This document shows positions 11,008 through 53,429 of a stretch of 64,000 nt of DNA, one piece after another. The notes under the pieces were generated by a model. It saw only the letters and a program-made list of their open reading frames with translations, did not search any database and was not told the origin of the DNA. Position numbers and translations under genes: made by a program. Where the stretch lies: the NCBI GenBank assembly GCA_964499705.1, contig CAZCME010000010.1, positions 22,280 through 86,279 of the forward strand, given 5' to 3'. The first letter of the stretch is position 1; every line of letters starts with the position of its first letter. The stretch comes from an uncultured bacterium (GTDB lineage Bacteria; UBA8481).

Positions 11008-11054
11008 AACCAGATTCCGCGGAATTCGATATTCGGATTCCGCGAATTCCTGTT

Positions 11055-12692
11055 ATGATGTTTTCATTCATGCATTCGAGCGAGCGGGTTATGGAGGCGG
11101 ATTTCAGCCGGGATGAGACACGGCAGTTTCCCGCGCGAATGTCTTCGATCACGGAAGCGACGGCGTTTCTCGTGGAACTCGTCAGGCAGTCTCATGGAAC
11201 GCGGCTCGATGAGACCACCTATTTCGATCTCCGCCTGGCCGTGACCGAGTCCCTGGCGAATATCGTGGAACACAGTTACGGAAACGAACCCGATCACACG
11301 GTCCGGATGAACGTCCGCATCCGCGAAGGGCGGGTGGAAATTCTCTTCACGGACCTGGGCCGGAGACCGGACCCGTCCCGCCTGAAGTCGCGCAATCTTG
11401 GAGAATATCGCGAGCGCGGTCTGGGTCTTTTTCTCATATCGAAATGCATGGACATGCTCCATTACTCCTTCGGCCGCGACGGCGTCAACACCCTGCGCAT
11501 GTACCGTGAACTTTCGCCGGGATCGCGGAGGCAGCCGCGGGAATCTCATCATCGCTCCTTCCATGCGGCGACTTTCGAGCATGAGGATGGGGGAAGAACG
11601 ATCTGTCTCTTCGGCTCCTTCGACGCCCTTCGTCCCGATCCGTTGCCGGCGGTCGTGGACGGGCCCGGGGCCCGTGTCATCCTCGACCTTTCGCTTCTCG
11701 ATGCCATCGATTTGCCGGGAGCCCAATCCGTCCACGAGTTCATCCGGCGGGAGAAGGAGGCGGGGGCGAACGTGGAACTGATTCCGCCCTCGGCCTCGGT
11801 CTGCGGCACGATCCGCAGGATCATCCCGGATTTTTTCTGGGCCTGTGTCGCTCCGGCCGCCGTCGAAACCGATCCCGACGGTTCGCCTCTGAAAGTCCCG
11901 GGTGCGCCTTCCGTCTCCGGGATCTCCGGCACACGGACGGCTGAGGCGCGCCACGAAGGCCGGCTTATCCCTCTCTTCAGATCAAGGCGACTCTCGGATC
12001 CGACGATTCCGGCGGATCGTGAGAAAGTCAGGAGCGCGTTGTGCAGAAGTTTTCTGTCGCGTGGCCGTATTTCCGCTAATGCGGCGGTCGTCTGGGGGAC
12101 GTCGGGCGGTTCGTATTTCGCGAGCATGATGGAGGATCCGGAATACGAGGACGGGGTCCTTATATTCCTCGGGTGTTCCACGCTTCAGGGATGGGAGGCT
12201 GTGCAGACATCGAGCCGATTGTATGCGGCTCTCGGCTGCTGGCCGGATCTGCGCAGGGAAGACGCGACGCTCCATTCGATCGAGGCCTTTGTCGCGCGCC
12301 TTTCTTCGGTGATGCGTGATCTGCTTCCGCATGCATCGGCCGCGTCGGAGTCCGGCTTGCTGCATGCCGCCGCGATCCGCATCACGCCGGACCGGGTCCG
12401 CGTCCTGACCGGAACCGGCATCGTCCTGGCCTCGGTCGGCTCCCTTCATCTGCGGTCGGTTCCCATCGGAGCGTCTGAAAGTTTTCCATCCGAAACCTTT
12501 GACCTGGATCCGCGGCTGGCGCATGCGGAAGCTCCTGGCGCCGACCTTCGGATTCTTCTCGGCCGTGTCGGAGCGGAGCAGGAAGGATCCTGGACCAATA
12601 ACTCTTTCGATTCGATCCAGGCACGACTGGCCGCAGAGCCGGAGCCGGCTGCTGATAAGGGCGTTCTTGACGTCCGAATTCTACCGGCGTAA
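11055..12692 (+). CDS. Partner-switching fusion protein: RsbW-like anti-sigma kinase (HATPase_c) + STAS domain + uncharacterised C-terminal domain
   Basis: N-terminal TESLANIVEHSY...GLGLFLI matches the anti-sigma regulatory factor kinase family. A central region (ICLFGSFDALRPDPLPAVVDGPGARVILDLSLLDAIDLPGAQSV) resembles STAS/anti-sigma-antagonist. The C-terminal roughly 250 aa are unassigned. The start may be ATG 11091. Confidence 0.55.
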   Translation: MMFSFMHSSERVMEADFSRDETRQFPARMSSITEATAFLVELVRQSHGTRLDETTYFDLRLAVTESLANIVEHSYGNEPDHTVRMNVRIREGRVEILFTDLGRRPDPSRLKSRNLGEYRERGLGLFLISKCMDMLHYSFGRDGVNTLRMYRELSPGSRRQPRESHHRSFHAATFEHEDGGRTICLFGSFDALRPDPLPAVVDGPGARVILDLSLLDAIDLPGAQSVHEFIRREKEAGANVELIPPSASVCGTIRRIIPDFFWACVAPAAVETDPDGSPLKVPGAPSVSGISGTRTAEARHEGRLIPLFRSRRLSDPTIPADREKVRSALCRSFLSRGRISANAAVVWGTSGGSYFASMMEDPEYEDGVLIFLGCSTLQGWEAVQTSSRLYAALGCWPDLRREDATLHSIEAFVARLSSVMRDLLPHASAASESGLLHAAAIRITPDRVRVLTGTGIVLASVGSLHLRSVPIGASESFPSETFDLDPRLAHAEAPGADLRILLGRVGAEQEGSWTNNSFDSIQARLAAEPEPAADKGVLDVRILPA

Positions 12693-12718: not shown

Positions 12719-13024
12719 ATGAAGCTGGGCCGGGTGATCGGAAGCGTGACGGCGACCCGCAAGAGCCCGCGGCTCGAGGGTTTCAAGCTCCTCGTCGTGC
12801 GCGGCGTTAAACCCGACGGCACACTGGAAAAAGATTACCTGATCGCCGTGGACGCGGTCGGCGCGGGCGCGGGGGAATCCGTCCTGACCGTGGCCGGATC
12901 GTCCGCGCGCGAAGATGAAAAGACGAAGAAAGCCGCGACGGACACCACCATTGTCGCGATCATCGACGATCTGCAGTTATTGGTCGGCGATCGCCAGCCA
13001 TCCAGTCTGAAGCGAACGGCTTAG
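12719..13024 (+). CDS. BMC vertex protein, EutN/CcmL/PduN family (BMC-P), paralog 1
   Basis: MKLGRVIGSVTATRK...LLVV...YLIAVDAVGAGAGESVLTVAGSSAR aligns closely with the E. coli EutN pattern MKLAVVTGQIV...AVAIDNIGAGTGEWVLLVSGSSAR. Confidence 0.85.
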   Translation: MKLGRVIGSVTATRKSPRLEGFKLLVVRGVKPDGTLEKDYLIAVDAVGAGAGESVLTVAGSSAREDEKTKKAATDTTIVAIIDDLQLLVGDRQPSSLKRTA

Positions 13025-13031
13025 CCGGCCC

Positions 13032-13358
13032 ATGTTCATCGCCAGGGTTGCGGGCCGTGTCTGGGCGACGGCCAAGAACGAGAATTACAACGGCGTTCCT
13101 TTGCTGATCGTCCAACCGCTCGACGAAATGCTCGCGCCATCCGGCGAGCCTGAAATCGCGGTGGATGCTATCGGAATGGGCGAAGGCGAACTGGTCTGGG
13201 TGGAAGGGGGCAAGGAAGCGTCTTATGCTCTGCCCGCGAGATACGGCCCGAGCGATTCATCCATCGTCGCCAAGATCGACAGCCTTGATCTGGCGCTCTC
13301 GGCTCCGCTGGACCGCCCAGTCAGGATCGTCGGCGAGCGCGGAGGAAATACCCGGTGA
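13032..13358 (+). CDS. BMC vertex protein, EutN/CcmL/PduN family (BMC-P), paralog 2
   Basis: MFIARVAGRVWATAK...PLLIVQPLD...IAVDAIGMGEGELVWVEGG...SSIVAKIDSLD carries the same fold signature. It starts 8 nt after paralog 1. Confidence 0.85.
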   Translation: MFIARVAGRVWATAKNENYNGVPLLIVQPLDEMLAPSGEPEIAVDAIGMGEGELVWVEGGKEASYALPARYGPSDSSIVAKIDSLDLALSAPLDRPVRIVGERGGNTR

Positions 13359-13633
13359 AGCTGGCGCTCGTGCTGGGCAAGGCCGTCTCCACTCACAAGC
13401 TGGATACCTTCGACCGGATGAAGACGCTCATTTGTCAGCCGCTCGATCTGGACCTTCGGCCATCGGGTCGTTCGCTCATCGCGATCGACTCCGTGGGCGC
13501 GGGCGAAGGAGAAGTCGTCCTGGTGATTCAGGAGGGGCGCAGCGCCCGCGATTTCACGGGCAACCCCACCGCCGCGACACGCACCATGATCGTCGGCATT
13601 GTCGACGGGATTGACATTGATCATAGTCCTTAA
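13355..13633 (+). CDS. BMC vertex protein, EutN/CcmL/PduN family (BMC-P), paralog 3
   Basis: The GTG start at 13355 overlaps paralog 2's stop (GTGA), with GGAGG 9 nt upstream. [15 protein letters not shown]...[24 protein letters not shown]...[12 protein letters not shown]. Confidence 0.85.
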
Positions 13634-14636
13634 ACCGGGGCACACCGCGGGGGATCGGACCGCTGTCGAAGAGATCATCACGGGGCACGGATACAAACCC
13701 GTTGCGATCGTCGGTGAACTGCGCACCGTGATCGCCGCCGTCGGCGACGGCGACAAGGAAATCCTGTTCCAATGCCAGACTTTGCCGGGTGTCGAAAATG
13801 TGATGCGCGTCATGGCGCCATACAAGCTCGTGGCGCGCCTCGAGGGCCATCCCCGCATTCCCGTGAAAGTCGGCAACGTGGAGATCGGAGGGTCGACGAT
13901 TGTCGTCATGGCGGGACCGTGTTCCGTGGAGACGGAGGATTCGCTGGCGGCCATCGCCGATGCGGTGGCCGCCGCGGGCGCGCGCATCCTGCGCGGCGGC
14001 GCATTCAAGCCGAGGACATCGCCGTACGCGTTCCAGGGGCACGGAGAGAAAGCGCTCAAGATGCTGAGGCGCGTTGCGGATGCGTCGGGCCTGAAGGTCG
14101 TCACGGAGGTCATGGCGGTCGAAACGCTGGACCTCGTGGCGGAACACGCGGATATTCTGCAGATCGGCGCCCGCAACATGCAGAATTACCCGCTTCTTCT
14201 GGCGGCCGGCAGGACCCGCAAGCCCGTGCTGCTGAAAAGGGGCATGTCGTCCACGATCGAGGAATTCCTGATGGCGGCGGAATATGTCTGTTCGGAGGGA
14301 AATCCCGCGGTGCTCCTGTGCGAACGCGGCATTCGCACATTTGAAACCGCGACACGCTTCACGCTCGACATCAACGCCATACCGCTGCTGCAGAAACTGT
14401 CGCATCTGCCCGTGATCGTCGATCCCAGCCACGGTTGCGGCCGATGGGACCTCGTGGCTCCGGCTTCGCGCGCGGCTGTTGCAGCGGGAGCGGACGGCCT
14501 TATAATGGAGGTCCATGACCAGCCGGAACGGGCGGCCAGCGACGGATTCCAGTCTCTGAAGCCGGCTCGTTTTCATGCTTGCATGGACGAACTCCGGCGG
14601 ATCGCGGCGGCGATTGGAAAAAGCCTGGATGCCTGA
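13617..14636 (+). CDS. aroF: 3-deoxy-7-phosphoheptulonate (DAHP) synthase, type I-beta, with an N-terminal ferredoxin-like regulatory domain
   Basis: [18 protein letters not shown], plus VIVDPSHG...RW...EVH, are signatures of the KDO8P/DAHP synthase family. The N-terminus IIVLKPG resembles Thermotoga-type DAHPS. The start is TTG 13617 or TTG 13599 and overlaps the end of BMC-P3. Confidence 0.8.
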
Positions 14637-14658: not shown

Positions 14659-16107
14659 ATGAAGAGGAGCGACCACATGAAATCGCGGAATCGATGCTGC
14701 GACCTGAACCCGTTTCCAGCCCTGGCATGCCTGATGCTCGTCGTGCTGTCCGCTCCTTCGCGCGCTTTCATCGGGCCGTCACCGGAACTGAACGCGCATG
14801 ACAAGGAAATCGCGCTTGAGATCGGCACGGGAACGCGGGATGTCGAGTTCAGCGGCACCGTGGGAGGATCGGTCATCCAGCTGGCCGAGCTCAAGATGGC
14901 GCAGACGTCGTACGATCTGCGTTTGTCCTACGGGCTGTCCCGCAACTTCACGCCTTATGCCCTGATCGGCATCGCCAAGGCCAATCTCGGCCTCATCAAT
15001 CTGTCCGCCGGTGGGGTGTCTCAGGGAGCCTTGAACATGAACGGGGAGCACGGGCTCATGTGGGGCGTCGGCGCCGAATACCAGCTGAGTCCGTCGTCGT
15101 TCGCTCCGGACCTCGCGATCGGCGTCTCCGGCGAATACCGTACGTCCACATCCGACATCAATGCCGGCGAGATTCAGCTGGACGAATTCCGCATGGCTCT
15201 GAAGGGATCCGGGAAATTCGACAAGGCGACGTTGTATGGTGGAATTCTCTATTCGAGTCTCAACGGGAATTACGCGGGCAACACGACGGCCGGAGTCAGG
15301 ACTGCCGGCCCGCTCGATTCCAAGAATAACATTGGTGTATTCGCGGGAGCCGATTATGCCTTCACGGAGAAGATCAACGGCCGGATGGAATTGGAACTCC
15401 TGACGGCATTCCAATTCAACCTGAGCATCGCCTACAAGATCGGCGGCCCGTGGCTGAATCGCGAGCGAACGGTCGCGGCGCCTCCCCCCGAGCCGGCTCA
15501 GCCCATGGCGCGCCGCAGGGAACCGGCGGCGGCGCGAGCGGAGGCGGCACCCGCGAATGAAGTGCGCGCGTGGACGCCGGAGGGCCGGGAAGTGCCCGTC
15601 GCCGAACCGCAGGCTCCTGCGCCGGTTCGGCGCGTGAAACCGGCCACGCCGCCGCCGGAAGTCACCACGGCTCCATTGCCCCCGGCATCGACGAGGGAAG
15701 TGCGGGCTACGCGGGACCGACCGTCGGATGCCGAGGAGCGCCGGGAGTTCACGGAAAAGTCTGCCGAGGAACTGGTGAAGATCGGCAGCGAATTGACGGA
15801 ATTGGGACGATACGACGAGGCGATTTCCCATTTCCGCCGCGCCGTGACCGCCGATCCCGGCAATTTCCGCGCGCGCTACAATCTAGCGACCGCGCAGTAT
15901 CTGAACCGCGATTTCGCCGCGGCGAAAGTTTCCTACGAGGAATCCATCAAGCTGATGCCGCGCGATGAGGAATCCCATCTCTTCCTGGGATTCTGTTATT
16001 ATCGGATGGGCCAGTTTGACGGCGCTGTTCGAGCCTGGCAGCGGGTTCTGGAGCTCAATCCGGAAAACGCGGTCGCGCTGAATAATCTGCAGGCGATGGG
16101 AAGATAA
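14659..16107 (+). CDS. Secreted protein: N-terminal OMP-like beta domain, Pro/Ala-rich linker, C-terminal TPR repeats
   Basis: Signal peptide MKSRNRCCDLNPFPALACLMLVVLSAPSRA. Alternating beta-strand pattern. A low-complexity PA-rich linker at about 15480-15700. TPR-like C-terminus (YNLATAQYLNRDFAAAKVSYEESIKL...). Confidence 0.5.
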   Translation: MKRSDHMKSRNRCCDLNPFPALACLMLVVLSAPSRAFIGPSPELNAHDKEIALEIGTGTRDVEFSGTVGGSVIQLAELKMAQTSYDLRLSYGLSRNFTPYALIGIAKANLGLINLSAGGVSQGALNMNGEHGLMWGVGAEYQLSPSSFAPDLAIGVSGEYRTSTSDINAGEIQLDEFRMALKGSGKFDKATLYGGILYSSLNGNYAGNTTAGVRTAGPLDSKNNIGVFAGADYAFTEKINGRMELELLTAFQFNLSIAYKIGGPWLNRERTVAAPPPEPAQPMARRREPAAARAEAAPANEVRAWTPEGREVPVAEPQAPAPVRRVKPATPPPEVTTAPLPPASTREVRATRDRPSDAEERREFTEKSAEELVKIGSELTELGRYDEAISHFRRAVTADPGNFRARYNLATAQYLNRDFAAAKVSYEESIKLMPRDEESHLFLGFCYYRMGQFDGAVRAWQRVLELNPENAVALNNLQAMGR

Positions 16108-16122
16108 GAAGGAGGGCTGAAC

Positions 16123-17460
16123 ATGTCACTGATGGAAAAAATGAGCGCCTTGAGAGGCGGAGGCGAGGCGGAGCAGAAGAAGGTCGATCTGCATGAAAAA
16201 ATCACGGATGCCATCGCACCGACGCTCGATGTGGATCTGCTGCGTTCTCCCGACCAGGCGAATCGCGACAGGATCATCCGCGAGAAAATCACCGAGGCCG
16301 CGCTCCAGATCACGACCCAGGAAGGAATCAATCTTTCCAAGCAGCAGTTCGAGTCGCTTGTTTCCGACGTGCTCGCCGGCATCGTCGGATTTGGCCCTCT
16401 GGAAAGGTTGCTGCGCGACAAGGAGATCAGCGAAATCATGACGAAGGGCGCCAAGTGCATCTTCGTCGAAAAGAAGGGTAAGGTCGTGAAGTCCGAAGTT
16501 ACGTTCAAGGACGAGGCGGAACTCCGCGACATCGTCGAGCGGATCATGAAGCCGCTTGGCCGCGTATGCGACGACCAGGTGCCCTACCAGGACGCGCGCC
16601 TCCCGGATGGCTCCCGCGTCAATGTCGTTATCCCCCCGCTGGCGATCGACGGCACGGCCCTGACCATTCGCAAGTTTTCGAAGAATCGACTGACGCACCA
16701 CGATCTCATCAAGTTCGGCGCGATGACGCCCGAGATGGCGGAGTTCCTCCGCGCCTGCGTCGAGGTCAGGTTGAATATCATCGTCTCCGGCGGTACCGGT
16801 TCCGGCAAGACGACGCTCCTGAATGTATTGTCCTCTTTCATTCCGGAGGACGAACGGACGGTGACGATCGAGGACGCCGCCGAGCTTTCTTTCGCGCAGG
16901 AGCATGTGATCCGGTTGGAGACGCGTCCCGCGGACTTCGAGGGCAAAGGCGCCATCACGATCCGCGACATGGTCAAGAACGCGCTCCGCATGCGCCCCGA
17001 CAGGATCGTCATCGGAGAGTGCCGCGGTCCGGAAGCCTTCGACATGCTGCAGGCGATGAACACCGGCCATGACGGTTCCATGTCGACGCTCCACTCCAAC
17101 GCGCCCCAGGACGCCATAGGCCGCATCGAAACGCTCGTGATGATGGCCGGATACGATCTCCCCGTGAAGGCAATCCGCAAGCAGATCTCCAGCGCCGTCA
17201 ACCTGATCATCCAGCAGTCGCGACTCGTCGATGGATCGAGGAAGGTCACGTACATCACGGAGGTCCAGGGGATGGAGGGAGAATCGATTCTCATGCAGGA
17301 TATTTTCATATTCGAGCAGGAGGGCATGGGCCCTGACGGCAAGCTCATCGGGAAACTGAAACCCACCGGACTCGTGCCGAAATTCTACGAGCGATTCAAG
17401 GCGGAAGGAGTCGCCATCGACCAGTCCATCTTCCATACGCCGGCCGACGGAAAAAAATAA
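16123..17460 (+). CDS. cpaF: CpaF/TadA-type secretion ATPase (type II/IV secretion NTPase, Flp pilus assembly)
   Basis: Walker A SGGTGSGKTTLLN. Asp box, and GECRGPEAFDMLQAMNTGHDGSMSTLH (His box). 445 aa. Confidence 0.85.
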   Translation: MSLMEKMSALRGGGEAEQKKVDLHEKITDAIAPTLDVDLLRSPDQANRDRIIREKITEAALQITTQEGINLSKQQFESLVSDVLAGIVGFGPLERLLRDKEISEIMTKGAKCIFVEKKGKVVKSEVTFKDEAELRDIVERIMKPLGRVCDDQVPYQDARLPDGSRVNVVIPPLAIDGTALTIRKFSKNRLTHHDLIKFGAMTPEMAEFLRACVEVRLNIIVSGGTGSGKTTLLNVLSSFIPEDERTVTIEDAAELSFAQEHVIRLETRPADFEGKGAITIRDMVKNALRMRPDRIVIGECRGPEAFDMLQAMNTGHDGSMSTLHSNAPQDAIGRIETLVMMAGYDLPVKAIRKQISSAVNLIIQQSRLVDGSRKVTYITEVQGMEGESILMQDIFIFEQEGMGPDGKLIGKLKPTGLVPKFYERFKAEGVAIDQSIFHTPADGKK

Positions 17461-17517
17461 TGTCCGGCTCCCCGCTCCGCGGAATCACAGACTTCTTCGC
17501 ACGCTCCGGATAGCGAT

Positions 17518-17922
17518 TTGTCCGCGCGCCGCCCCCTTTTCTTTATTGTAATCGTCGTCTTGACCATTGGAGTCCTGTTCGAGGCGATGATGTTGCCGGA
17601 GGAGGAAACATGGTCGGTCACGTTGGAACGCGAATCGCGACGCGTGAAGGACAAGGAAGTCGTGGATCTGCAGCCGGGCCTTTCGGACCAGGAAAAGAAG
17701 GCGGAGTTGCGGAAAGCGGCCCGCGCCCAGTGGGATCTTGCCGAATGGCATTACGCCCGCGGAGACTATGACACCGCTGAAAAGGAATACCTGAGATACA
17801 TCAATGAATTTCCATACATGGACCTCGATTACGGATATCGGACCGATGACGCCCGGAACCGCCTGAATGAGATCCGGGCCTTTCGCGCCAGGGAGCAGCA
17901 AGGGACGTATCCGGGCCCGTGA
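17518..17922 (+). CDS. Hypothetical membrane-anchored protein
   Basis: One N-terminal TM (LFFIVIVVLTIGVLF) followed by a charged helical region. No recognisable domain. Confidence 0.4.
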   Translation: MSARRPLFFIVIVVLTIGVLFEAMMLPEEETWSVTLERESRRVKDKEVVDLQPGLSDQEKKAELRKAARAQWDLAEWHYARGDYDTAEKEYLRYINEFPYMDLDYGYRTDDARNRLNEIRAFRAREQQGTYPGP

Positions 17923-18455
17923 ACATATCGGAACATGTCAAGACCTGGACGGGCCAGATCAGGACACAGGGCTGCGATGCCCTGTGGCACAGGCTGTCCG
18001 ACGAGGAGCGGGAGGAATTCGAGATCTTCGGGCGGAAGATGGATGAGGCTCTGTCGATGGAGCTCGATCATCATTGGCAGAACGCCGCGGACCGGTACAA
18101 GTTCATCGCGGAGGAATTCCCGGCCTTCTCTGACATCGCGATCGCCCGGGCCAGCCACATCATCACCGAGAAGATCAATCGCGCCATCCGATATTACAAC
18201 CAGGGCGTGCGAAGCGTGGAAACGCGCCAATACAACAAAGCGCTCCAGTATTTCGACCTCGCCTTGAATGTGGACAGGAACATGGAGAATGCCATGTACA
18301 ATCTCGGCATGACCCACAAGATCGTTTACATTTCGGAGCCCGGCAAGAATCCGCTCGCGAAAATATCCGCGATCGATACGTTCAAGTCGCTCCTGAAGAA
18401 AAATCCCCGCCATGCGAAGGCCGCGGCCCAGATCGAGCAGCTGAAAGGGCTTTGA
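17919..18455 (+). CDS. TPR-like repeat protein
   Basis: Start overlaps the upstream stop. YYNQGVRSVETRQYNKALQYFDLALNVDRNMENAMYNLGMTH is TPR-like. Confidence 0.45.
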   Translation: MNISEHVKTWTGQIRTQGCDALWHRLSDEEREEFEIFGRKMDEALSMELDHHWQNAADRYKFIAEEFPAFSDIAIARASHIITEKINRAIRYYNQGVRSVETRQYNKALQYFDLALNVDRNMENAMYNLGMTHKIVYISEPGKNPLAKISAIDTFKSLLKKNPRHAKAAAQIEQLKGL

Positions 18456-19165
18456 ACTCCCCGTTACTTGCGGTCGCCACGGGCGCCGGGATGTCGGCCG
18501 AGAGCGGGGTGCCCACGTTTCGAGACGGCACGGATGCATTGTGGCAGGGGCGGCGTCCGGAGGAGGTTGCGACCCCGGAGGCGTTCACGCGGAATCCGGA
18601 GGACGTCTGGTCATTCTACATGGCGCGTCGAAAAAATCTTCACTCGGTGCGGCCGAACGAGGGGCATAAGGCGATCGCGGGGGCACAGGAGCTCTTCGGG
18701 GATTTTCAGGTCATCACTCAGAATGTGGATGGATTGCATCAGGCCGCGGGATCGAGGCGTGTCCTGGAATTGCATGGATCCATCTGGCGCGCCCGCTGTG
18801 GACGATGCGCGAGAAGCGAGGAGGATAGGCGGACCGAGGGGGAACTTCCGTACTGTCGCTGCGGCGGGCTTATGCGGCCGGATGTGACCTGGTTCGGAGA
18901 AGACCTTCCGGAGGGAGCGATGGCCGAAGCCCTGGCGACTGCCGGAGCGGTCAAGGTGCTGATCGTGATCGGCACATCGAACATGGTGTATCCGGCCGCT
19001 TCCATTCCCCTCGCCGCGTTGGAAGCCGGAGCGACTGTCATTGAAGTGAATCCCCAGCCGACTCCTTTATCCCGGCATGTTTCGCGGTTCATCCAGGGAC
19101 CGGCGGCCGCCTGCGTGCCGCCCCTCTTGCATGAACTCGCGGACACGTTCCATGTTCATGCATAG
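18452..19165 (+). CDS. cobB: NAD-dependent protein deacylase, Sir2 family
   Basis: GAGMSAESGVPTFRD, QNVDGLH, a Zn-binding CxxC...CxxC pair (CGRCARS...CRCGG), and VIEVN. 237 aa. Confidence 0.85.
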   Translation: MNSPLLAVATGAGMSAESGVPTFRDGTDALWQGRRPEEVATPEAFTRNPEDVWSFYMARRKNLHSVRPNEGHKAIAGAQELFGDFQVITQNVDGLHQAAGSRRVLELHGSIWRARCGRCARSEEDRRTEGELPYCRCGGLMRPDVTWFGEDLPEGAMAEALATAGAVKVLIVIGTSNMVYPAASIPLAALEAGATVIEVNPQPTPLSRHVSRFIQGPAAACVPPLLHELADTFHVHA

Positions 19166-19207: not shown

Positions 19208-22200
19208 TTGTCACGTCAAATGCTTCGGATTTTGAGATCTTCTTCATCCTGTTGTTTCTTTTTTCTTCTTTGCTTCGCTGATCCGTCCGCTGTATCCGGA
19301 TCGGTCAATCCTCCTGCTGCGCCCTCCAACCCGGCGTCGGTGGCGGATTCCAGGGAGGACAATTCGAGCGGAGGCATCGATGGTCTTTCTCAAAGTGAGA
19401 TTCAGGATCGTCTCCGGGAATTTCGGTCCCTGAATCCCGGCATCGTCGAAGCGCTCCTGGAACATCCTTCTCTCCTCAACGAAACAACCGTCGCCCTGGC
19501 CCTCGGGCTCGAACCATCCGATGTGCGCCGCGCGACGACGACGCGGTCGGTCACATACCGCGATCTCCTCGAAAATCCCGTCAGGCGTGTCGCCCGTGTT
19601 CTGTGGCGATCCGCGCATCCCAAGCCGTACGATCATCCCCAGGAAGCGGCCGCGCAGCGATTCGCCCAGTCGATCAATGAATTCGGCGTGATCCCGCATG
19701 GCGCGCTGATCGCCGCGCACCAGGAGCAGAAAGCGCTCCAGGCGCAAGCGCGCGCTTGGGCGCCGCGCGGATTCCAGGGCGCTCCGGAGGGACCGGAGGT
19801 CGCGGGAATCGATTCGATCTCCTGGCAGTTCGTGGGACCCGCGAACATCGGAGGCCGGGTCCGGTCCATCGTCATTCATCCCACCACGACGTCATCGATG
19901 TGGGCGGGGAGTGTCTCCGGGGGAATCTGGAAGACGGTCAACTCAGGCGAGACGTGGAGCGTGGTGAACGATTTCATGTCCAATGTCGCCGTCTCCACTC
20001 TTCTCATCGACACGACGAACGCGAACACGATGTATGCGGGAACGGGGGAGGGCTTCTACGGAGGGCACAGCATCCAGGGCGCCGGGGTATTCAAGTCCAC
20101 GGACGCTGGAGCGACATGGACGCAGCTGTCCGCGACGAACACGTCGAGCTGGTATTACGTCAACAGGCTGGCGCAATCTCCGGATGGAACCGTCATCCTG
20201 GCCGCGACGAGGTCGGGGATCTGGCGCACCACCAACGGGGGGACGAACTGGACCCAGTTGCTCGCCGACACGGATATCCTCGATGTGAAATTCGATCCGA
20301 CGAATGGAAATCGGGCGGCGGCCGGCGGTCGCTACGGCGATGCGTATTACTCGACGGATGCCGGCCAGAACTGGTCCAACGAAGCCGGGATTCCCAACAA
20401 CGCCAGTTTTCTTTCGCGCGTGGAACTGGCCTGGTCCGCCTCGGCATCGGGAACGCTGTACGCCGCCTACAATAACCAGGGCGTCACGGAAGGGGAGTTT
20501 TACCGGTCCACGGACGGCGGCCAGACTTACACGCGCCGGAACACGGGCGACACATCGAACTGGCTCGGGTCGCAGGGATGGTATGACAACATCATCTGGG
20601 TGGATCCGACGAACGCGGACACGGTCGTCGTCGGCGGCATCGATCTCTGGCGCTCCACGGACGGCGGCCAGACCTTCCAGAAGATCTCCATCTGGGAACA
20701 GAACCGAAACTCCGTTCACGCGGATCATCACTACATCGTCCACGATCCCGGATTCAACGGCACGGCGAACCGGCGCGTTTATCTTGGCAACGACGGAGGC
20801 GTTTACAAGACCGACAACATCTATACCGCGGTGGGCACGTCGGGTTTCCAGCCGCTTCTCAACAAGCTCGGCATCACGCAGTTTTACGGAGCCGCCGGGA
20901 ACGAGACGGCGAATATCTTCTGGGGCGGAGCGCAGGACAACGGCACGCTCCATTTCACGGGGACGGACAGCTGGGGAGAAGCCGTCGGCGGCGACGGCGG
21001 TTTCTGCGCCGCGGATCCCGTGGAGTCGGCATATCTGTACGGCGAATACACGTACCTCCAGATGTACCGCTCCACGAATTTCGGCGCTTCCGCCTCGGAT
21101 ATCTACAACGCGTCGGGTAACACCATCGCGGATGCGAATCAGAACAACGCTCTTTTCATCGCGCCGTTCCTGCTGGATCCGAATAACGCGAACACGATGT
21201 ACGGCGGCGCCGAGAGGCTTTGGCGGTCAACCAACGTCAAGGCCGGCACCCCGGACTGGTTTTCAGTCAAGGCCGTGGTCGCGGGAAATCCCAAGATCAG
21301 CGCGATCGCCGTCTCGCCCGGAGATCCGAGGGTCATCTGGGTCGGCTACGATGCCGGGGGCCGCGTCGAATATTCGAGCGACACCGGCGCCACATGGGTT
21401 CAGGTCGGAAACGGCACTCTTCCTTCGCGGTATGTTCAGCGCATCGTCATCGATCCGAACAGGCCGTCCCGCGTTCATGTCACCTTCGGCGGGTACGCGA
21501 TGGGAAACATCTGGCGCACGGAGGACACGGGCGCGACCTGGTACGACGTCAACACGAACGCCACCGTGAAGATTCCTTCCGTGCCGGTACGGGGATTCGC
21601 AGTCTGGGCCAGGAACAGCGATTCGATCTACGCGGGCACCGATATCGGCGTTTACGCTTCGACCGACAGCGGCAAAAACTGGTCGCCGACGAACGACGGC
21701 CCCTCGAATGTCTCCGTCGACGAGCTCTTCTGGCAGCGGACGGACACCTTGTATGCCGCCACTCACGGGCGCGGCCTGTGGCGCATCAACGTGGCGCGCG
21801 TCGTCCCGCCATCGGACACGGCGGCGCTCGGGCCGAACAAGTGGTACGTGAACGACGCGTCGACGACCGGCGACTCCTTCACGAGCGCGGCCGGCAGCAA
21901 CGGCAACAACGGGCTGACGATCGCGACGCCGAAGCTGACTCTTTCAGCCGTCATCCCGTTTCTCTCCGAGGGTGACACGGTCTACATCGACGCCGGGACT
22001 TTCACGCCTTCGGATACGGTCAGGATCGAGACGAATGCCGTCTGGATCCTCGGCAAGGATTCCATTTCCACCGTGATCGACTTTAATGATTCCTCGCAAT
22101 CCGGTCAGAAGTCGATATACGCGTCGGGGCGCAACAGGATCACGATTCGGGATCTCGCGGTAACGCGGGCCTATCACGGACTCTGGTTCAATAACGCCGA

Positions 22201-25030
22201 TACCTGCGTGATCGAGCGGGTACGCACGGATTCGCACAGCCAGGGCGGGATGAATTTCGAGAACGGATCGGACAGCAATCTCGTCGTCCATAGTCAGGCG
22301 ACCGCCACCGGCAATGGCGGCTTCCGATTCGTGACCGGAAGCGGGTACAATACACTGGCGGCGAATGTAGCGGCTTTCACCACGGGCAACGGCTTCCACT
22401 TGAATGCGTCGACCGGCAATACCTTGATCAACAACACGTTCTGGGGAAATGATGTCACGAACGACGGATTCAACCTCTCTGACACGAGCAATAACAATAC
22501 GCTCTTGAACAACCGCAGCGAGACCGGGCTCTATGGGTTCCTGATCAACAGATCCGCAGGCAACCTTCTGTCCGGAAATATCGCCATTGCCACCATGGGC
22601 GAAGGGTTTGAAGTCCTGAATGCCAGCCACAATAACGTACTGACGAATAATGTCGCGTCGCTCAGCCTCACTCCAGGTTTCGAAGTCTTCGCAAACAGCA
22701 ACGGAAATACATTTCTCAATAATCGTTCCACAAACGGCCGTTCTCACGGTTTCAGGGTCTTTTCGAGCAGCAACAACGTCTTTCGCCAGAACATGGCCGA
22801 TTCCAATCTCGGCTGGGGTTTCTACATCGACGGCGACTGCAGTGCCGACACTTTTCAGAAAAACGTCTATATCCCATCGCCCGCGCTTCCGGATTCCGCG
22901 CTCTTCGAGAGCACGTTCGCGCGGATGAACGTCGAACGGAACTGGTGGGGCTCCACGGATTCGGCCGCGATCAAGGCAAAATTCGCCGCCTTCGCGCGCG
23001 ATTCAGCCGTGTATATTCCCTATCGACTCGGCATCGTCGACACGACCGCCGGCGCGGACACTGTTGCTCCGCGAGCGCCCGACACGGTCGCGGCGGCGGT
23101 TTTATCGTCCAGCGCGATTCGCGTCTCCTGGTCGCCTGTGACGGTGAACGAGGAAGCATCGCCGTTCGCCGTGAGCCTGGCTCAGTACCGGATCCACAGG
23201 GCGCTCTCCGCGGATTCCGGCTCCTGGCCGCAGGTCGGCGTCGCCGGAGCGTCGGCGGTGTCATTCGACGATACTTCTCTCGCCGCCGGCGTGACGTACT
23301 ACTACCGGGTCACGGCTGTTGACTCGGCGACGCCCTTCGAGAACCAGAGTTTCTTCTCCGATTCGACCGGCTCCGCGATGACGCCGCCGGACACGTCGGG
23401 GCCGAATGCCTGGTATGTGAACGACACATCGACGACGGGAGACAGCTTCACTTCCTCCGTCGGAGACGATGCCAACAGCGGATTGTTCATCTCGACGCCG
23501 AAGCGCTCCCTGGCCGCGATCGATCATCTCCTCACGGCAGGAGACACGGTCTATGTCGATTCCGGATTCTACTACGAGGTCGAGACCGTGACGGTCGGCG
23601 TCAGCGGCGTTCTCATCCGGGGCGTGGATTCCTCCAGCTCGATCATCCGTTTCGACAGCAATTCCGTGCAGGCCTGTCGCGCGGTCCAGGTGTTGAACGC
23701 GACGGGAGTCACGATCCGCGATATTGCAGTGCTGAACGCATCGAAGGGAATATGGCTCAATAACGGCGACCAGGGATCGATCCAGCGCGTGAAGCTTTCT
23801 TCCAACGGCCGGGGGATCCATCTCCTGAATGCCGACACCAACTCGATCACGGACGCGTTCGCGTCGTCGTCTGGCACGATCGGGTTCTATCTGGTCACGA
23901 GCCATGGCAATACCATGACGGCGTGCGCCACGAGCTTCAGCACTTCGAGCGGAATCCAGATGGATACGTGTTTCGCCAACTCGGTGAGCGGATGCACGCT
24001 CGTGAGCGATCTGGAAGAGGCGCTGATCGTCCGGTGGGGAGGAAGAGTTACGATCACAGGGAACATTGTGAGCGGCTCTGCCTACGCGATCACGCTCGAA
24101 AACAGCTCGAACAACGTCGTCGAGCGCAACATCGCCGTTTCGAACCAGGATGGCATCTGGCTGGACACCGCGACGAATAATATCGTGCGGGGAAATCTGA
24201 GCGCTTCGAACACGCGGAGCGGCATCACGCTGCGAGGCGCGTCCACCGACAACTTCGTCTCTCAGAACCAGCTCTCGAATAACGGGTGGTACCAGATCAG
24301 CATCATTGACGCTGGCGCCGCCGACACTTTTCTTGCCAACAATATTCTCGTCTCAACGGGAAATCCGGACAGCGGCGTCTTCCTGGGATCGCGGAATCGG
24401 ATGAAGTTCGCGCGGAACTGGTGGGGCTCGGTCGACTCGGTCGCTATACGAGCTGATCTCGCGGGACTCGGTCGGGATTCCATCGACTACTCGCCGTTTC
24501 GTCTCACGATCGCCGATACCAACGTGGGCGCGGACTCGGTAGCGCCGGAAGCGCCGGCCGGCCTGACGGTCGACAGTCCGTACGCGCAGATCCGCATTTC
24601 CTGGGCGGCCGTCGCCGGGAACGAGGACGGGCTGGCGGGCGCGCCCGGCGTCGTGAAATACCTTGTCTATCGCTCGCGTCGCTCCGATACGTCCGTCTGG
24701 GGTGCGCCGGTGGGTGAAACCACGGCGACGTCATTTTCGGATACCTCTACCGCGCCGGACACGGACTATTTCTACCGGATCACGGCGCAGGACGGCGCGA
24801 GTCTGCCGAACCAGAGTTTCTATTCCTCGATCGTTTCGGGAAGATCGATTCGTGCGACGGGCGATTTCACGGGCGATTCCACGGTCACCCTGGCTGATTT
24901 CCGGTTGATCCAGGTTCGCTTCAAGACTCCGGGGCTGTACGATCCTCTATTCGACATCGGCAGGAACGGCGTTGACGGTGTGATTAATGAAGAGGACTTC
25001 CTGGAGCTGGCGAGGCGATACGGGCAGTAG
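19208..25030 (+). CDS. Giant secreted multi-domain protein (1940 aa): Asp-box (BNR) beta-propeller repeats, right-handed parallel beta-helix repeats, FN3-like domains, C-terminal dockerin-like module
   Basis: Signal-like N-terminus. Repeated SxDxGxTW Asp-box motifs (STDAGATWTQ, TTNGGTNWTQ, STDAGQNWSN, STDGGQTYT, STDGGQTFQ, SSDTGATWVQ, TEDTGATWYDV, STDSGKNWSP). Two blocks of Asn/Gly-rich beta-helix repeats. Three FN3-like modules ...YYYRVTAVD.... C-terminal GDFTGDSTVTLADFRLI...DIGRNGVDGVINEEDFLELARRYGQ resembles a two-repeat dockerin. Confidence 0.8.
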   Translation: MSRQMLRILRSSSSCCFFFLLCFADPSAVSGSVNPPAAPSNPASVADSREDNSSGGIDGLSQSEIQDRLREFRSLNPGIVEALLEHPSLLNETTVALALGLEPSDVRRATTTRSVTYRDLLENPVRRVARVLWRSAHPKPYDHPQEAAAQRFAQSINEFGVIPHGALIAAHQEQKALQAQARAWAPRGFQGAPEGPEVAGIDSISWQFVGPANIGGRVRSIVIHPTTTSSMWAGSVSGGIWKTVNSGETWSVVNDFMSNVAVSTLLIDTTNANTMYAGTGEGFYGGHSIQGAGVFKSTDAGATWTQLSATNTSSWYYVNRLAQSPDGTVILAATRSGIWRTTNGGTNWTQLLADTDILDVKFDPTNGNRAAAGGRYGDAYYSTDAGQNWSNEAGIPNNASFLSRVELAWSASASGTLYAAYNNQGVTEGEFYRSTDGGQTYTRRNTGDTSNWLGSQGWYDNIIWVDPTNADTVVVGGIDLWRSTDGGQTFQKISIWEQNRNSVHADHHYIVHDPGFNGTANRRVYLGNDGGVYKTDNIYTAVGTSGFQPLLNKLGITQFYGAAGNETANIFWGGAQDNGTLHFTGTDSWGEAVGGDGGFCAADPVESAYLYGEYTYLQMYRSTNFGASASDIYNASGNTIADANQNNALFIAPFLLDPNNANTMYGGAERLWRSTNVKAGTPDWFSVKAVVAGNPKISAIAVSPGDPRVIWVGYDAGGRVEYSSDTGATWVQVGNGTLPSRYVQRIVIDPNRPSRVHVTFGGYAMGNIWRTEDTGATWYDVNTNATVKIPSVPVRGFAVWARNSDSIYAGTDIGVYASTDSGKNWSPTNDGPSNVSVDELFWQRTDTLYAATHGRGLWRINVARVVPPSDTAALGPNKWYVNDASTTGDSFTSAAGSNGNNGLTIATPKLTLSAVIPFLSEGDTVYIDAGTFTPSDTVRIETNAVWILGKDSISTVIDFNDSSQSGQKSIYASGRNRITIRDLAVTRAYHGLWFNNADTCVIERVRTDSHSQGGMNFENGSDSNLVVHSQATATGNGGFRFVTGSGYNTLAANVAAFTTGNGFHLNASTGNTLINNTFWGNDVTNDGFNLSDTSNNNTLLNNRSETGLYGFLINRSAGNLLSGNIAIATMGEGFEVLNASHNNVLTNNVASLSLTPGFEVFANSNGNTFLNNRSTNGRSHGFRVFSSSNNVFRQNMADSNLGWGFYIDGDCSADTFQKNVYIPSPALPDSALFESTFARMNVERNWWGSTDSAAIKAKFAAFARDSAVYIPYRLGIVDTTAGADTVAPRAPDTVAAAVLSSSAIRVSWSPVTVNEEASPFAVSLAQYRIHRALSADSGSWPQVGVAGASAVSFDDTSLAAGVTYYYRVTAVDSATPFENQSFFSDSTGSAMTPPDTSGPNAWYVNDTSTTGDSFTSSVGDDANSGLFISTPKRSLAAIDHLLTAGDTVYVDSGFYYEVETVTVGVSGVLIRGVDSSSSIIRFDSNSVQACRAVQVLNATGVTIRDIAVLNASKGIWLNNGDQGSIQRVKLSSNGRGIHLLNADTNSITDAFASSSGTIGFYLVTSHGNTMTACATSFSTSSGIQMDTCFANSVSGCTLVSDLEEALIVRWGGRVTITGNIVSGSAYAITLENSSNNVVERNIAVSNQDGIWLDTATNNIVRGNLSASNTRSGITLRGASTDNFVSQNQLSNNGWYQISIIDAGAADTFLANNILVSTGNPDSGVFLGSRNRMKFARNWWGSVDSVAIRADLAGLGRDSIDYSPFRLTIADTNVGADSVAPEAPAGLTVDSPYAQIRISWAAVAGNEDGLAGAPGVVKYLVYRSRRSDTSVWGAPVGETTATSFSDTSTAPDTDYFYRITAQDGASLPNQSFYSSIVSGRSIRATGDFTGDSTVTLADFRLIQVRFKTPGLYDPLFDIGRNGVDGVINEEDFLELARRYGQ

Positions 25031-41053: not shown

Positions 41054-41278
41054 TCAGCAGTCACCTACGGGAAAAGGCAGCGGATTTACTCCTTCGTTGC
41101 AGGTATTGGCCGCATCGCAGCCGATACACGCCGGTGTCCAGGACGTGGCAACCAGATCACAGACAAGCGAATTGCAGTCGACCTGGCAGAGCGAGCTGGA
41201 ATTGGAAGGCGATTGACCGTGATGGCCGATCGTGATTCTTTCGTAGCACGTCAGTGCCGGCTTCTTATAGAGCTTCAT
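41054..41278 (-). CDS. Candidate RiPP precursor peptide (74 aa, 8 Cys)
   Basis: MKLYKKPALTCYERITIGHHGQSPSNSSSLCQVDCNSLVCDLVATSWTPACIGCDAANTCNEGVNPLPFPVGDC. It sits immediately downstream of two radical-SAM/SPASM genes in the same orientation, overlapping the second by 14 nt. Its GC content is noticeably lower than that of its neighbours. Confidence 0.5.
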   Translation of the reverse strand: MKLYKKPALTCYERITIGHHGQSPSNSSSLCQVDCNSLVCDLVATSWTPACIGCDAANTCNEGVNPLPFPVGDC

Positions 41279-50006: not shown

Positions 50007-50038
50007 CTATGATGTCCTTGCCGCGCCGGTATTCCTCT

Positions 50039-53291: not shown

Positions 53292-53429
53292 GCACGGATA
53301 TTTGCATGGGTTGAGTTGTGCGTCAAGACACACACGCGTTGGAAGAACGAAAGATTTTGGAACCGGTTCGCGCATGCACGGTCTATAATCGCTGGAATGC
53401 ACAATCTGTTCGCACCGAGGGAGGCTCCC

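What the first reader, a model, noticed from the sequence alone, without database searches (positions are those of the whole stretch)
12719..13633. Three tandem BMC-P (EutN/CcmL/PduN) vertex genes with no BMC-H/BMC-T shell gene anywhere in 64 kb
All three small ORFs carry the unmistakable EutN fold signature (…AVDxxGAGxGExVL…SSAR…). They are tightly packed: an 8-nt gap, then a GTGA overlap. BMC pentamers normally accompany hexameric (Pfam00936) shell proteins and a signature enzyme, yet none is present in this window. This could be a satellite shell locus of a microcompartment encoded elsewhere. A triplet of BMC-P paralogs is a known hallmark of some uncharacterised metabolosome types. Alternatively the BMC-P fold has been repurposed outside a canonical BMC.
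Basis: partly seen in the sequence, partly recalled or inferred. Interest (0 to 1): 0.75.

Follow-up and report, generated by a model that had tools for sequence, protein, structure and literature searches.

The report
Lone microcompartment vertex-protein gene triplet
Three intact genes for the pentameric "corner" proteins of bacterial microcompartment shells sit together without any facet-protein gene nearby, which matches the already catalogued "fragmented" microcompartment layout of Hydrogenedentota-like bacteria, so it is a new example of a known pattern rather than a new system.

Summary
Three tightly packed + strand genes (12719-13024, 13032-13358, 13355-13633) each encode a full-length EutN/CcmL (BMC-P) domain. 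No BMC-H/T domain occurs anywhere in the six-frame translation of the 64 kb.

The three are ancient paralogs, 36-40% identical to one another, and all are under purifying selection. Each is orthologous, in type and in gene order, to one member of the canonical BMC-P triplet, which in 35 loci from other phyla lies in the same locus as a BMC-H gene.

The closest named relatives are Candidatus Hydrogenedentota. The published BMC catalog (Sutter et al. 2021) describes this layout for that phylum. In FRAG6/FRAG7 "fragmented" BMCs a lone BMC-P triplet sits at one site, while BMC-H (with a flavoprotein, PduS/T, AldDh and PTAC) sits elsewhere. The best reading is therefore a satellite shell locus: a new member of a known kind.

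I could not test whether this genome carries BMC-H elsewhere.

One point is new. In nine diverged lineages the triplet is fixed in an operon-like block with an outer-membrane TPR protein and a TadA-like ATPase. In eight of these it is preceded by a fused RsbW-STAS-PP2C partner-switching protein. That leaves a small chance of an additional or shell-independent role.

The parts
12719..13024 (+). BMC-P paralog 1 (101 aa), the 'type 1' member of the triplet. It is probably the catalog's green clade.
   Evidence: PF03319 E = 1.6e-28. Best solved relative is the Haliangium ochraceum shell pentamer 5V74, E = 4.6e-22. It is 59% identical to the Gemmatimonadetes GWC2_71_9 95-aa protein (P0040); the catalog places a 95-aa BMC-P of that MAG in the 'paleGreen' clade as FRAG8. 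23 of 26 columns conserved in BMC-H-linked type-1 proteins are retained. Ka/Ks is 0.10-0.28.
13032..13358 (+). BMC-P paralog 2 (108 aa), the 'type 2' member, with a disordered C-terminal tail of about 20 aa (DRPVRIVGERG...).
   Evidence: PF03319 E = 4e-22. The AF2 model (pLDDT 82) superposes on the GrpN pentamer subunit 4I7A with TM 0.87-0.90 and rmsd 1.6 A. All 47 significant PDB matches are BMC-P. Its nearest neighbours are the second genes of triplets in other phyla.
13355..13633 (+). BMC-P paralog 3 (92 aa, GTG start in a GTGA overlap with paralog 2), the 'type 3' member.
   Evidence: PF03319 E = 6.4e-24. Its nearest neighbours are the third genes of triplets in other phyla. Ka/Ks is 0.08-0.34.
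11055..12692 (+). Context gene, 26 nt upstream of paralog 1: a fused partner-switching protein made of an RsbW/SpoIIAB-like kinase, a STAS-like domain and a PP2C-like domain.
   Evidence: HATPase_c_2 E = 9.7e-21; STAS is detected in its orthologs. AF2 plus Foldseek match SpoIIAB (E = 6e-9) for the N-terminal part, and the RssB C-terminal domain, SpoIIE, RsbX and Rv1364c (E = 1e-6 to 1e-4) for the C-terminal part. It lies directly upstream of the triplet in 8 independent contigs. The family has only 11 members in the protein database; six were traced to contigs that carry a BMC-P triplet or P1 homolog, by look-up or by matching contig length.
13617..14636 (+). Context gene: DAHP synthase (FXD plus DAHP_synth_1 domains). 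Its TTG start overlaps paralog 3 by 17 nt. It is a variable insert in the block.
   Evidence: Pfam E = 5e-76. The start follows the gene call in L001 and the N-terminus MIIVLKPG. It is present between P3 and the TPR gene only in the window and L007.
14677..16107 (+). Context gene: an outer-membrane beta-barrel protein with TPR repeats. It follows the triplet in all nine lineages.
   Evidence: OMP_b-brl and TPR families. Its start overlaps P3 by 4 nt in L092, L175 and L176 and abuts it in L090 and L178.
16123..17460 (+). Context gene: TadA/CpaF-like secretion ATPase (T2SSE), conserved next to the TPR gene.
   Evidence: T2SSE E = 6e-66. NCBIfam TadA family scores 320 bits, below the 373-bit cut-off. 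Identity across lineages is 65-85%.
17518..19165 (+). Context genes: a 134-aa protein, a 178-aa TPR-like protein and SIR2, joined by 4-nt overlaps. They form the end of the conserved block.
   Evidence: plus the gene tables.

Best explanation
The three genes encode the canonical triplet of BMC-P vertex proteins. Each forms a pentamer that caps a vertex of an icosahedral microcompartment shell. The facet proteins (BMC-H, possibly BMC-T) and the cargo enzymes are encoded at one or more other places in the same genome. This makes the locus a satellite of a 'fragmented' (FRAG6/FRAG7-like) BMC of a Hydrogenedentota-like groundwater bacterium.

Shown here:
- The fold and family of all three proteins.
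- Their orthology in type and order to triplets that sit beside BMC-H in other phyla.
- Purifying selection on all three.
- Conservation of the lone-triplet layout in nine related lineages.

Inferred, not shown:
- Pentamer formation.
- Incorporation into a shell.
- The existence of BMC-H and cargo genes elsewhere in this genome.
For: Family:
- All three proteins are full-length PF03319.
- P1 matches the HO-shell pentamer 5V74 at E = 4.6e-22, and P2 and P3 match the GrpN pentamer 4I7A at about 1e-12.
- The P2 model superposes on BMC-P pentamer subunits at rmsd 1.6 A.

Canonical triplet:
- The paralogs are only 36-40% identical to each other.
- Each one's nearest neighbours are the position-equivalent genes of triplets in other phyla.
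- With type-specific profiles, the order 1-2-3 is the commonest pattern, and 35 loci with that order have BMC-H in the same locus.
- Type-specific motifs are shared with those loci.
- 23/26, 12/18 and 14/18 of the columns conserved in BMC-H-linked proteins are retained, and most changes are conservative.

Functional genes:
- Reading frames are intact in the window, L006, L007, L090, L092, L173, L175, L176 and L178.
- Ka/Ks is 0.08-0.34 with Ks above 0.8, i.e. saturated.

Taxon: the nearest named relative with the same gene block is a Candidatus Hydrogenedentota MAG, GCA_003697085.1.

Precedent (Sutter et al. 2021, PMC8217296, Supplementary Data 2):
- FRAG BMCs have shell genes in up to six places, and a BMC-P triplet is their common feature.
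- FRAG7, found in two Ca. [quoted passage not shown]
- FRAG6 (Hydrogenedentes, Sumerlaeota, BRC1) has the triplet co-localised in two loci and BMC-H with a flavoprotein elsewhere.

P-only loci are also seen here in Ignavibacteriota, Gemmatimonadota and Poribacteria.
Against: - BMC-H elsewhere in this genome, or in any of the eight related contigs, was not demonstrated. None lies within 64 kb here or within +-10 kb in the relatives.
- The triplet is embedded in a tightly packed, strongly conserved block of non-BMC genes: a partner-switching protein, an OM TPR protein, a TadA-like ATPase and SIR2. The satellite reading does not explain this.
- Outside this clade, on loci with at least 18 kb held, only 1 of 20 full triplets lacks a BMC-H within +-10 kb. 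The lone-triplet layout is therefore a clade peculiarity.
- The catalogued FRAG7 genomes (about 42% G+C by their names) are not close relatives of this 61% G+C lineage.
- The one FRAG7 BMC-P found in the stored part of the catalog's tree file is labelled 'heather2', not paleGreen.
Confidence: 0.7

Rival explanations
1. Shell-independent or additional role. In this clade the BMC-P pentamers work together with their conserved operon partners: an outer-membrane TPR/beta-barrel protein, a TadA-like ATPase and a fused RsbW-STAS-PP2C partner-switching protein. They would act in an envelope, secretion or signalling process, with no BMC-H in the genome or independently of it.
For: - The PPP - TPR/OMP - TadA-like ATPase block is conserved in nine lineages whose other block proteins have diverged to 36-85% identity. 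P3 and the TPR gene overlap by 4 nt (L092, L175, L176), the HATPase gene and P1 overlap by 4 nt (L173), and the upstream flanks vary.
- The partner-switching family is tiny: 11 members in 5.8 billion proteins, six of them traced to contigs carrying a BMC-P triplet or P1 homolog.
- No BMC-H or BMC enzyme lies within 64 kb.
Against: - The sequences keep the positions conserved in BMC-H-linked triplets, most clearly P1 at 23/26, and the BMC-P fold.
- Catalogued genomes of the same phylum with lone triplets do have BMC-H elsewhere.
- A housekeeping DAHP synthase is inserted inside the block in two lineages, so adjacency need not mean shared function.
- The block lacks the other Tad or pilus components.
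- Absence of BMC-H was never shown.
Confidence: 0.13
2. Decaying remnant. A complete BMC locus with its own BMC-P exists elsewhere, or the BMC was lost, and these three copies are non-functional leftovers.
For: Only the lack of neighbouring BMC genes.
Against: - All three frames are intact and of normal length in nine lineages.
- Ka/Ks is 0.08-0.34 with saturated Ks.
- P1 is among the best conserved proteins of the block, at 66-81% identity against 36-38% for the upstream gene.
- Family-defining residues are kept.
Confidence: 0.02
3. Recent local tandem duplication, or a recently acquired island carrying extra vertex genes.
For: Tandem arrangement and tight packing.
Against: - The paralogs are only 36-40% identical, and each groups with a different, phylum-spanning type.
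- G+C of 0.63 matches the surroundings at 0.58-0.64.
- The same arrangement with the same neighbours occurs in nine diverged lineages.
Confidence: 0.02

Closest known systems
FRAG6 / FRAG7 'fragmented' BMC loci of Candidatus Hydrogenedentes, Sumerlaeota and BRC1 (Sutter et al. 2021, Nat Commun 12:3809, Supplementary Data 2)
   Same: A co-localised BMC-P triplet stands alone, away from BMC-H. The phylum is the same, judged by the nearest named relative. No recognisable BMC enzymes lie next to the triplet. P1 groups with 'paleGreen'-type proteins, as the FRAG6 and FRAG8 proteins do.
   Different: The other half of the system (BMC-H with a PF02441 flavoprotein; PduS/T, AldDh and PTAC in FRAG7) was not seen and could not be searched for. 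The catalog text does not mention the partner-switching, TPR/OMP and TadA-like ATPase neighbours found here. The catalogued FRAG7 MAGs are low-GC, unlike this 61% G+C lineage.
Haliangium ochraceum (HO) BMC shell, with its satellite BMC-P genes
   Same: It has one 'green-like' BMC-P plus two further BMC-P paralogs, and type I HO loci keep two of them in a satellite locus. P1's best solved relative is the HO shell pentamer (5V74, E = 4.6e-22). Kofleriaceae loci in my sample show H-P1 without P2 and P3 nearby.
   Different: In HO the type-1 pentamer sits in the main locus beside BMC-H. Here all three are together and no BMC-H is near.
PVM / ACI-like loci (class II aldolase - BMC-H - BMC-P x3), e.g. 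locus L009 and the Bryobacterales loci
   Same: The same three BMC-P types occur in the same 1-2-3 order. L009 P1 is 62% identical to window P1.
   Different: Those triplets directly follow BMC-H and a class II aldolase. Neither is present in the window.
Single vertex proteins CcmL, CsoS4, EutN, PduN and GrpN
   Same: Same fold and domain (PF03319). The P2 model superposes on GrpN and CcmL at rmsd 1.6-1.7 A.
   Different: None of the three reaches the NCBIfam equivalog cut-offs for CcmL, EutN or CsoS4 (52-78 bits against cut-offs of 118-125). Those proteins occur singly, or as a pair in alpha-carboxysomes, inside complete loci.
Rv1364c-type fused partner-switching proteins (for the upstream neighbour only)
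   Same: RsbW-like kinase, STAS and PP2C-like modules are combined in one polypeptide.
   Different: The domain order differs (kinase - STAS - PP2C-like here). The PP2C-like part is not recognised by Pfam and may be catalytically degenerate. The family is confined to this clade and has been found only beside the BMC-P triplet wherever its context could be traced.

Membership tests
BMC-P (EutN/CcmL, Pfam PF03319) shell vertex proteins | Full-length match to the PF03319 domain above the gathering score | tested here: met
   99.5, 78.9 and 84.7 bits against a cut-off of 25, covering profile positions 1-83/83.
BMC-P (EutN/CcmL, Pfam PF03319) shell vertex proteins | The BMC-P fold (a small beta-barrel of about 85 residues) as seen in solved pentamers | tested here: met
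   PDB sequence matches have E = 4.6e-22, 7.2e-13 and 5.7e-12. The AF2 model of the most divergent paralog, P2, gives TM 0.87-0.90 and rmsd 1.6 A to 4I7A, and all 47 significant hits are BMC-P.
BMC-P (EutN/CcmL, Pfam PF03319) shell vertex proteins | Assembly into homopentamers that occupy shell vertices | not testable with these tools
   Only monomer prediction is available, and oligomeric state and shell incorporation need experiments. The conserved D45, G48, G50, E53 and G60 are consistent with it but are not a test.
Canonical BMC-P triplet (one gray-clade, one orange-clade and one green/blue/purple-clade member; Sutter et al. 2021) | Three co-occurring paralogs that belong to three different, phylum-spanning clades | tested here: met
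   The paralogs are 36-40% identical. Nearest neighbours are the 1of3, 2of3 and 3of3 genes of other phyla. Type-specific profiles separate them by 116-154 bits and give the order 1-2-3, as in 35 loci with BMC-H in the same locus.
Canonical BMC-P triplet (one gray-clade, one orange-clade and one green/blue/purple-clade member; Sutter et al. 2021) | Assignment of the members to the catalog's named colour clades with the catalog's own HMMs | tested here: inconclusive
   The catalog's shell-protein HMMs and sequences are not held. There is only an indirect link for P1: it is 59% identical to the GWC2_71_9 95-aa protein, and the catalog lists a 95-aa BMC-P of that MAG as paleGreen. P2 and P3 are assigned to gray and orange by elimination only.
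BMC main locus (Sutter et al. 2021 definition) | [quoted passage not shown] | tested here: not met
   No PF00936-like sequence occurs in 64 kb, with a best E of 1.3. By the catalog's definition this is a satellite, shell-protein-only locus.
FRAG-type (fragmented) BMC, FRAG6/FRAG7-like | A BMC-P triplet located away from the other shell genes and from BMC enzymes | tested here: met
   for the window. The same holds within +-10 kb, or to the contig end where less is held, in eight related contigs.
FRAG-type (fragmented) BMC, FRAG6/FRAG7-like | BMC-H (with a PF02441 flavoprotein; PduS/T, AldDh and PTAC in FRAG7) present elsewhere in the same genome | not testable with these tools
The BMC-H profile search listed 120 of 8000 candidates, none from this clade.
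FRAG-type (fragmented) BMC, FRAG6/FRAG7-like | Host in Candidatus Hydrogenedentes, Sumerlaeota or BRC1 | tested here: inconclusive
   The only named close relative with the same gene block is a Ca. Hydrogenedentota MAG (P0018, GCA_003697085.1). The window's own record carries no name in the tools.

The most novel reading that the evidence does not exclude
In this Hydrogenedentota-like clade the BMC-P triplet is a fixed component of an operon with an outer-membrane TPR/beta-barrel protein and a TadA-like ATPase. In most lineages the operon is headed by a clade-specific all-in-one RsbW-STAS-PP2C partner-switching protein. The most novel reading is that the pentamers have a role beyond, or instead of, capping a metabolosome shell. 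One version is a shell-free assembly tied to an envelope or secretion machine. Another is shell closure controlled by a partner-switching signal. Either would be the first concrete lead on why BMC-P comes in threes.
Probability: 0.12. Interest if true: 0.7.

Novelty: new member of a known kind. Interest (0 to 1): 0.3.

Why it matters
As a satellite triplet of a fragmented BMC, this locus adds one more groundwater Hydrogenedentota example to a pattern that is already catalogued, so its value is mainly for annotation. Two open questions give it modest extra interest. Nobody knows what FRAG-type BMCs do. Nobody knows why many BMCs carry three vertex paralogs when 12 pentamers suffice. The strictly conserved neighbours found here (a partner-switching regulator, an OM TPR protein and a TadA-like ATPase) are concrete, testable candidates for regulators or partners of the triplet in this phylum.

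Tried and rejected
Searches that did not answer the question:
- Genome-contig scan with a P1 alignment. It was useful for comparative context but not for finding BMC-H in this clade.
- Metagenome-contig scan with P1 alone. It had the same limitation, with a best identity of 61%.
- BMC-H profile search of the protein database. It gave 8000 candidates, of which 120 were listed. The few with names were Myxococcota or Deltaproteobacteria and none came from this clade, so it says nothing about BMC-H in these genomes.
- Looking up the NCBI 144,773-bp parent contig through P1 and through the ATPase. Only short ENA and Logan contigs are on record, so I could not walk beyond the window.
- Literature search for BMCs in Hydrogenedentota beyond the catalog. 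Nothing relevant turned up. The 2017 HO-shell paper is not held, so I did not map interface residues.
- The catalog supplements hold trees and encapsulation-peptide HMMs, but no shell-protein sequences or HMMs. Direct colour-clade assignment was therefore impossible.

Items considered and rejected:
- The weak tblastn hit at 63548-63673 (E = 0.17) looked like a possible BMC-H. It is an out-of-frame, Arg-rich translation of a gene read in another frame.
- Pseudogenes, recent duplication and a horizontally acquired island were considered and rejected.
- The promoter and terminator scan of 9-20 kb gave nothing above the shuffled expectation.
Full report
**What is there.** The + strand carries three small genes at 12719-13024 (101 aa), 13032-13358 (108 aa) and 13355-13633 (92 aa, GTG start). 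Each matches Pfam PF03319 (EutN_CcmL) over the whole 83-position profile, with E = 1.6e-28, 4e-22 and 6.4e-24. Genes 2 and 3 overlap in GTGA. The quoted 'SSAR' motif is exact only in P1: P3 has RSAR, and P2 has GGKEASYAL at that place.

**No facet-protein gene in the window.**
- tblastn with five reference BMC-H proteins gives nothing better than E = 0.17. That hit is an out-of-frame, arginine-rich translation.
- A 64-sequence BMC-H profile, run without filters on all 1073 six-frame segments of at least 30 aa, gives a best E of 1.3.
- A BMC-P profile on the same segments finds exactly the three genes.
- Pfam annotation of about 45 window proteins shows housekeeping, envelope and regulatory genes only. 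There is no aldehyde dehydrogenase, PduL, class II aldolase, DeoC, RpiB, PF02441 flavoprotein or PduS.

**What the three proteins are.** They are not recent copies, because they share only 36-40% identity with one another.
- P1's best solved relative is the pentamer of the Haliangium ochraceum shell (5V74, E = 4.6e-22). P2 and P3 match the GrpN pentamer 4I7A best.
- An AlphaFold2 model of P2, the most divergent paralog (pLDDT 82), superposes on GrpN, CcmL, EutN, CsoS4 and HO pentamer subunits at rmsd 1.6-2 A. All 47 significant PDB matches are BMC-P. Residues 91-108 form a disordered tail.
- None reaches the NCBIfam equivalog cut-offs for CcmL, EutN or CsoS4.

I compared them with 160 loci fetched from genome and metagenome collections.
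- Each window paralog's nearest neighbours are the position-equivalent genes (1of3, 2of3, 3of3) of triplets in other phyla.
- With type-specific profiles the order 1-2-3 is the commonest pattern. It occurs in 35 loci that have BMC-H in the same locus, and in 18 that do not.
- The type-specific sequence signatures are visibly shared.
- Of the columns at least 85% conserved in BMC-H-linked proteins, 23/26 (type 1), 12/18 (type 2) and 14/18 (type 3) keep the same residue in this clade. Most changes are conservative.

This is the canonical BMC-P triplet.

**The genes are functional.** The exact P1 sequence occurs on contigs from Hainich groundwater metagenomes. Orthologous triplets with intact frames occur on eight further independent contigs: L006, L007, L090, L092, L173, L175, L176 and L178. 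Pairwise Ka/Ks among the seven lineages analysed (the window plus six of these) is 0.08-0.34 for all three genes, with synonymous sites saturated. P1, at 66-81% identity, is among the best conserved proteins of the neighbourhood. Local G+C (0.63) matches the window. Pseudogenes, a recent duplication and a foreign island are all rejected.

**Whose genome it is, and the precedent.** The only named close relative with the same gene block is a Candidatus Hydrogenedentota MAG (P0018, GCA_003697085.1).

The BMC catalog of Sutter et al. [quoted passage not shown] It reports that BMC-P occurs mostly singly or as a triplet, with one gray-clade member, one orange-clade member and a third from another clade. 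It also describes FRAG ('fragmented') BMC types, whose shell genes lie in up to six places and whose common feature is the triplet. Its Supplementary Data 2 states:
- FRAG7, in two Ca. [quoted passage not shown]
- FRAG6, in Hydrogenedentes, Sumerlaeota and BRC1, has the triplet co-localised in two loci and BMC-H with a flavoprotein elsewhere.

Window P1 is 59% identical to the 95-aa Gemmatimonadetes GWC2_71_9 protein (P0040). The catalog lists a 95-aa BMC-P of that MAG as a paleGreen FRAG8 protein, and the FRAG6 Sumerlaeota proteins fall in the same clade.

The locus is therefore best read as the triplet fragment of a FRAG6/7-like BMC: a new member of a known kind. The function of FRAG BMCs is itself unknown.

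**What I could not show.** The defining prediction, BMC-H elsewhere in the same genome, is untested.
- The BMC-H profile search returned 8000 candidates, of which 120 were listed. None came from this clade.
- The 144,773-bp parent contig is not on record in the look-up tool.

The satellite reading therefore rests on orthology with BMC-H-linked triplets and on the catalogued genomes of the same phylum. The catalogued FRAG7 MAGs are about 42% G+C by their names, so they are not close relatives of this 61% G+C lineage.

**The unexpected part: the neighbourhood.** In the window and seven related contigs the triplet sits in the same tightly packed, same-strand block. The eight-contig series is the window, L006, L007, L090, L092, L173, L175 and L176.
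- A 480-545-aa HATPase_c_2/STAS protein comes first, followed by P1-P2-P3, an outer-membrane TPR protein and a T2SSE ATPase. The ATPase matches the NCBIfam TadA family at 320 bits, below the 373-bit cut-off.
- A protein of about 135 aa, a TPR-like protein of about 180 aa and SIR2 close the block.
- Upstream flanks differ in L007, L092 and L173.
- Gene starts and stops overlap by 4 nt at HATPase/P1 (L173) and at P3/TPR (L092, L175, L176).

A ninth, more distant lineage (L178, P1 60% identical) keeps P1-P2-P3, the TPR protein and the ATPase, but has a different upstream gene.

The block proteins have diverged to very different degrees: ATPase 65-85%, SIR2 54-66%, TPR protein 43-51%, and HATPase/STAS protein only 36-41%. 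The linkage has thus survived substantial divergence.

A DAHP synthase is wedged between P3 and the TPR gene only in the window and L007. In the window its TTG start at 13617 overlaps P3 by 17 nt. This shows that adjacency in the block does not guarantee shared function.

The upstream protein is a fused partner-switching module.
- AF2 (pLDDT 75) plus Foldseek match SpoIIAB/RsbW kinases for the N-terminal part (E = 6e-9).
- The C-terminal roughly 230 residues match PP2C-like domains (RssB C-terminal domain, SpoIIE, RsbX, Rv1364c; E = 1e-6 to 1e-4). A STAS domain lies between the two.
- The family has only 11 members in 5.8 billion proteins. Six of them were traced to contigs that carry a BMC-P triplet or P1 homolog, either by look-up or by matching contig length.
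- None of these neighbours accompanies BMC-P in the other phyla sampled.

Outside this clade, on loci with at least 18 kb held, 34 of 46 have BMC-H within +-10 kb, and only 1 of 20 full triplets lacks it. The lone-triplet-in-this-operon layout is therefore a fixed peculiarity of the clade.

**How it most likely works (part shown, part inferred).**
- Shown: three distinct, conserved BMC-P-fold proteins are encoded together, apparently co-transcribed with their neighbours.
- Inferred from the family: each forms pentamers that close the twelve vertices of an icosahedral shell built from BMC-H encoded elsewhere. Established knowledge of BMC shells comes from the HO shell 5V74 and from the CcmL, CsoS4 and GrpN structures.
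- Inferred from the family: the three paralogs provide alternative or specialised caps, as in other triplet-bearing BMCs.
- Speculative: the upstream partner-switching protein may couple expression or assembly to a signal.

I put about 0.70 on the satellite/FRAG reading and about 0.13 on a shell-independent or additional role tied to the operon partners. Decay and recent duplication get about 0.02 each, and the remainder is unassigned.

**Verdict.** The pattern is already catalogued for this phylum, so novelty is 'new member of a known kind' and interest is modest (0.3). The conserved operon context is the only new lead. A PF00936 search of the full genomes is the single decisive computation.

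Noticed in passing
window 11055-12692 (+): A 545-aa fused partner-switching protein: an RsbW/SpoIIAB-like kinase, a STAS-like domain, and a PP2C-like C-terminal fold that Pfam does not recognise. The family has only 11 members in the 5.8-billion-protein database. Six were traced to contigs carrying a BMC-P triplet or P1 homolog.
   Followed up: yes
window 14677-19165 (+); also L006, L007, L090, L092, L173, L175, L176, L178: A conserved operon-like block lies downstream of the triplet: an OM beta-barrel/TPR protein, a TadA/CpaF-like ATPase, a 134-aa protein, a 178-aa TPR-like protein and SIR2, joined by 4-nt overlaps. No other Tad or pilus components are present, and its function is unknown.
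   Followed up: partly
window 13617-14636 (+): A DAHP synthase (ferredoxin-like FXD domain plus DAHP_synth_1) is inserted between BMC-P 3 and the TPR gene, overlapping BMC-P 3 by 17 nt. It occupies this position only in the window and L007, and not in the other six lineages that carry the full block.
   Followed up: partly
window 13302-13355 (C-terminus of BMC-P 2); L007, L173, L175: The type-2 BMC-P carries a semi-conserved, predicted-disordered C-terminal tail (DRPVRIVGE[R/T]G). The tail is absent from type-2 proteins of other phyla and from L178.
   Followed up: partly
window 19208-25030 and 25105-31149 (+): Two tandem giant paralogous ORFs (1940 and 2014 aa) carry Sortilin-Vps10/BNR, fn3 and NosD/right-handed beta-helix domains. 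A similar NosD/beta-helix giant ORF follows SIR2 in L175 and L176.
   Followed up: no
window 41265-43321 (-): Two adjacent radical-SAM genes overlap by 4 nt. One carries a SPASM domain, which suggests a peptide-maturation pair, but no precursor was looked for.
   Followed up: no
window 52203-54419 (-): A 738-aa protein whose adenosine deaminase domain occupies only residues 389-726. The N-terminal extension of about 390 aa has no Pfam match.
   Followed up: no
window 58138-58956 (+): A single 272-aa ORF fuses ThiS/MoaD-like and MoaE domains, i.e. a fused molybdopterin synthase.
   Followed up: no
window 48306-50779 (-): A PspA/IM30 family gene lies next to a 566-aa AAA ATPase on the same strand.
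   Followed up: no
window 11018-11044 (+): A 12-bp-stem hairpin (CGCGGAATTCGATATTCGGATTCCGCG) lies in the short divergent intergenic region just upstream of the partner-switching gene. The scan as a whole was not above the shuffled expectation.
   Followed up: no
L144 10001-11117 (metagenome contig Ga0315294_10000004, 354 kb): This is the only full 1-2-3 BMC-P triplet outside the Hydrogenedentota-like clade that has no BMC-H within +-10 kb on a long contig. Its neighbours were not annotated.
   Followed up: no
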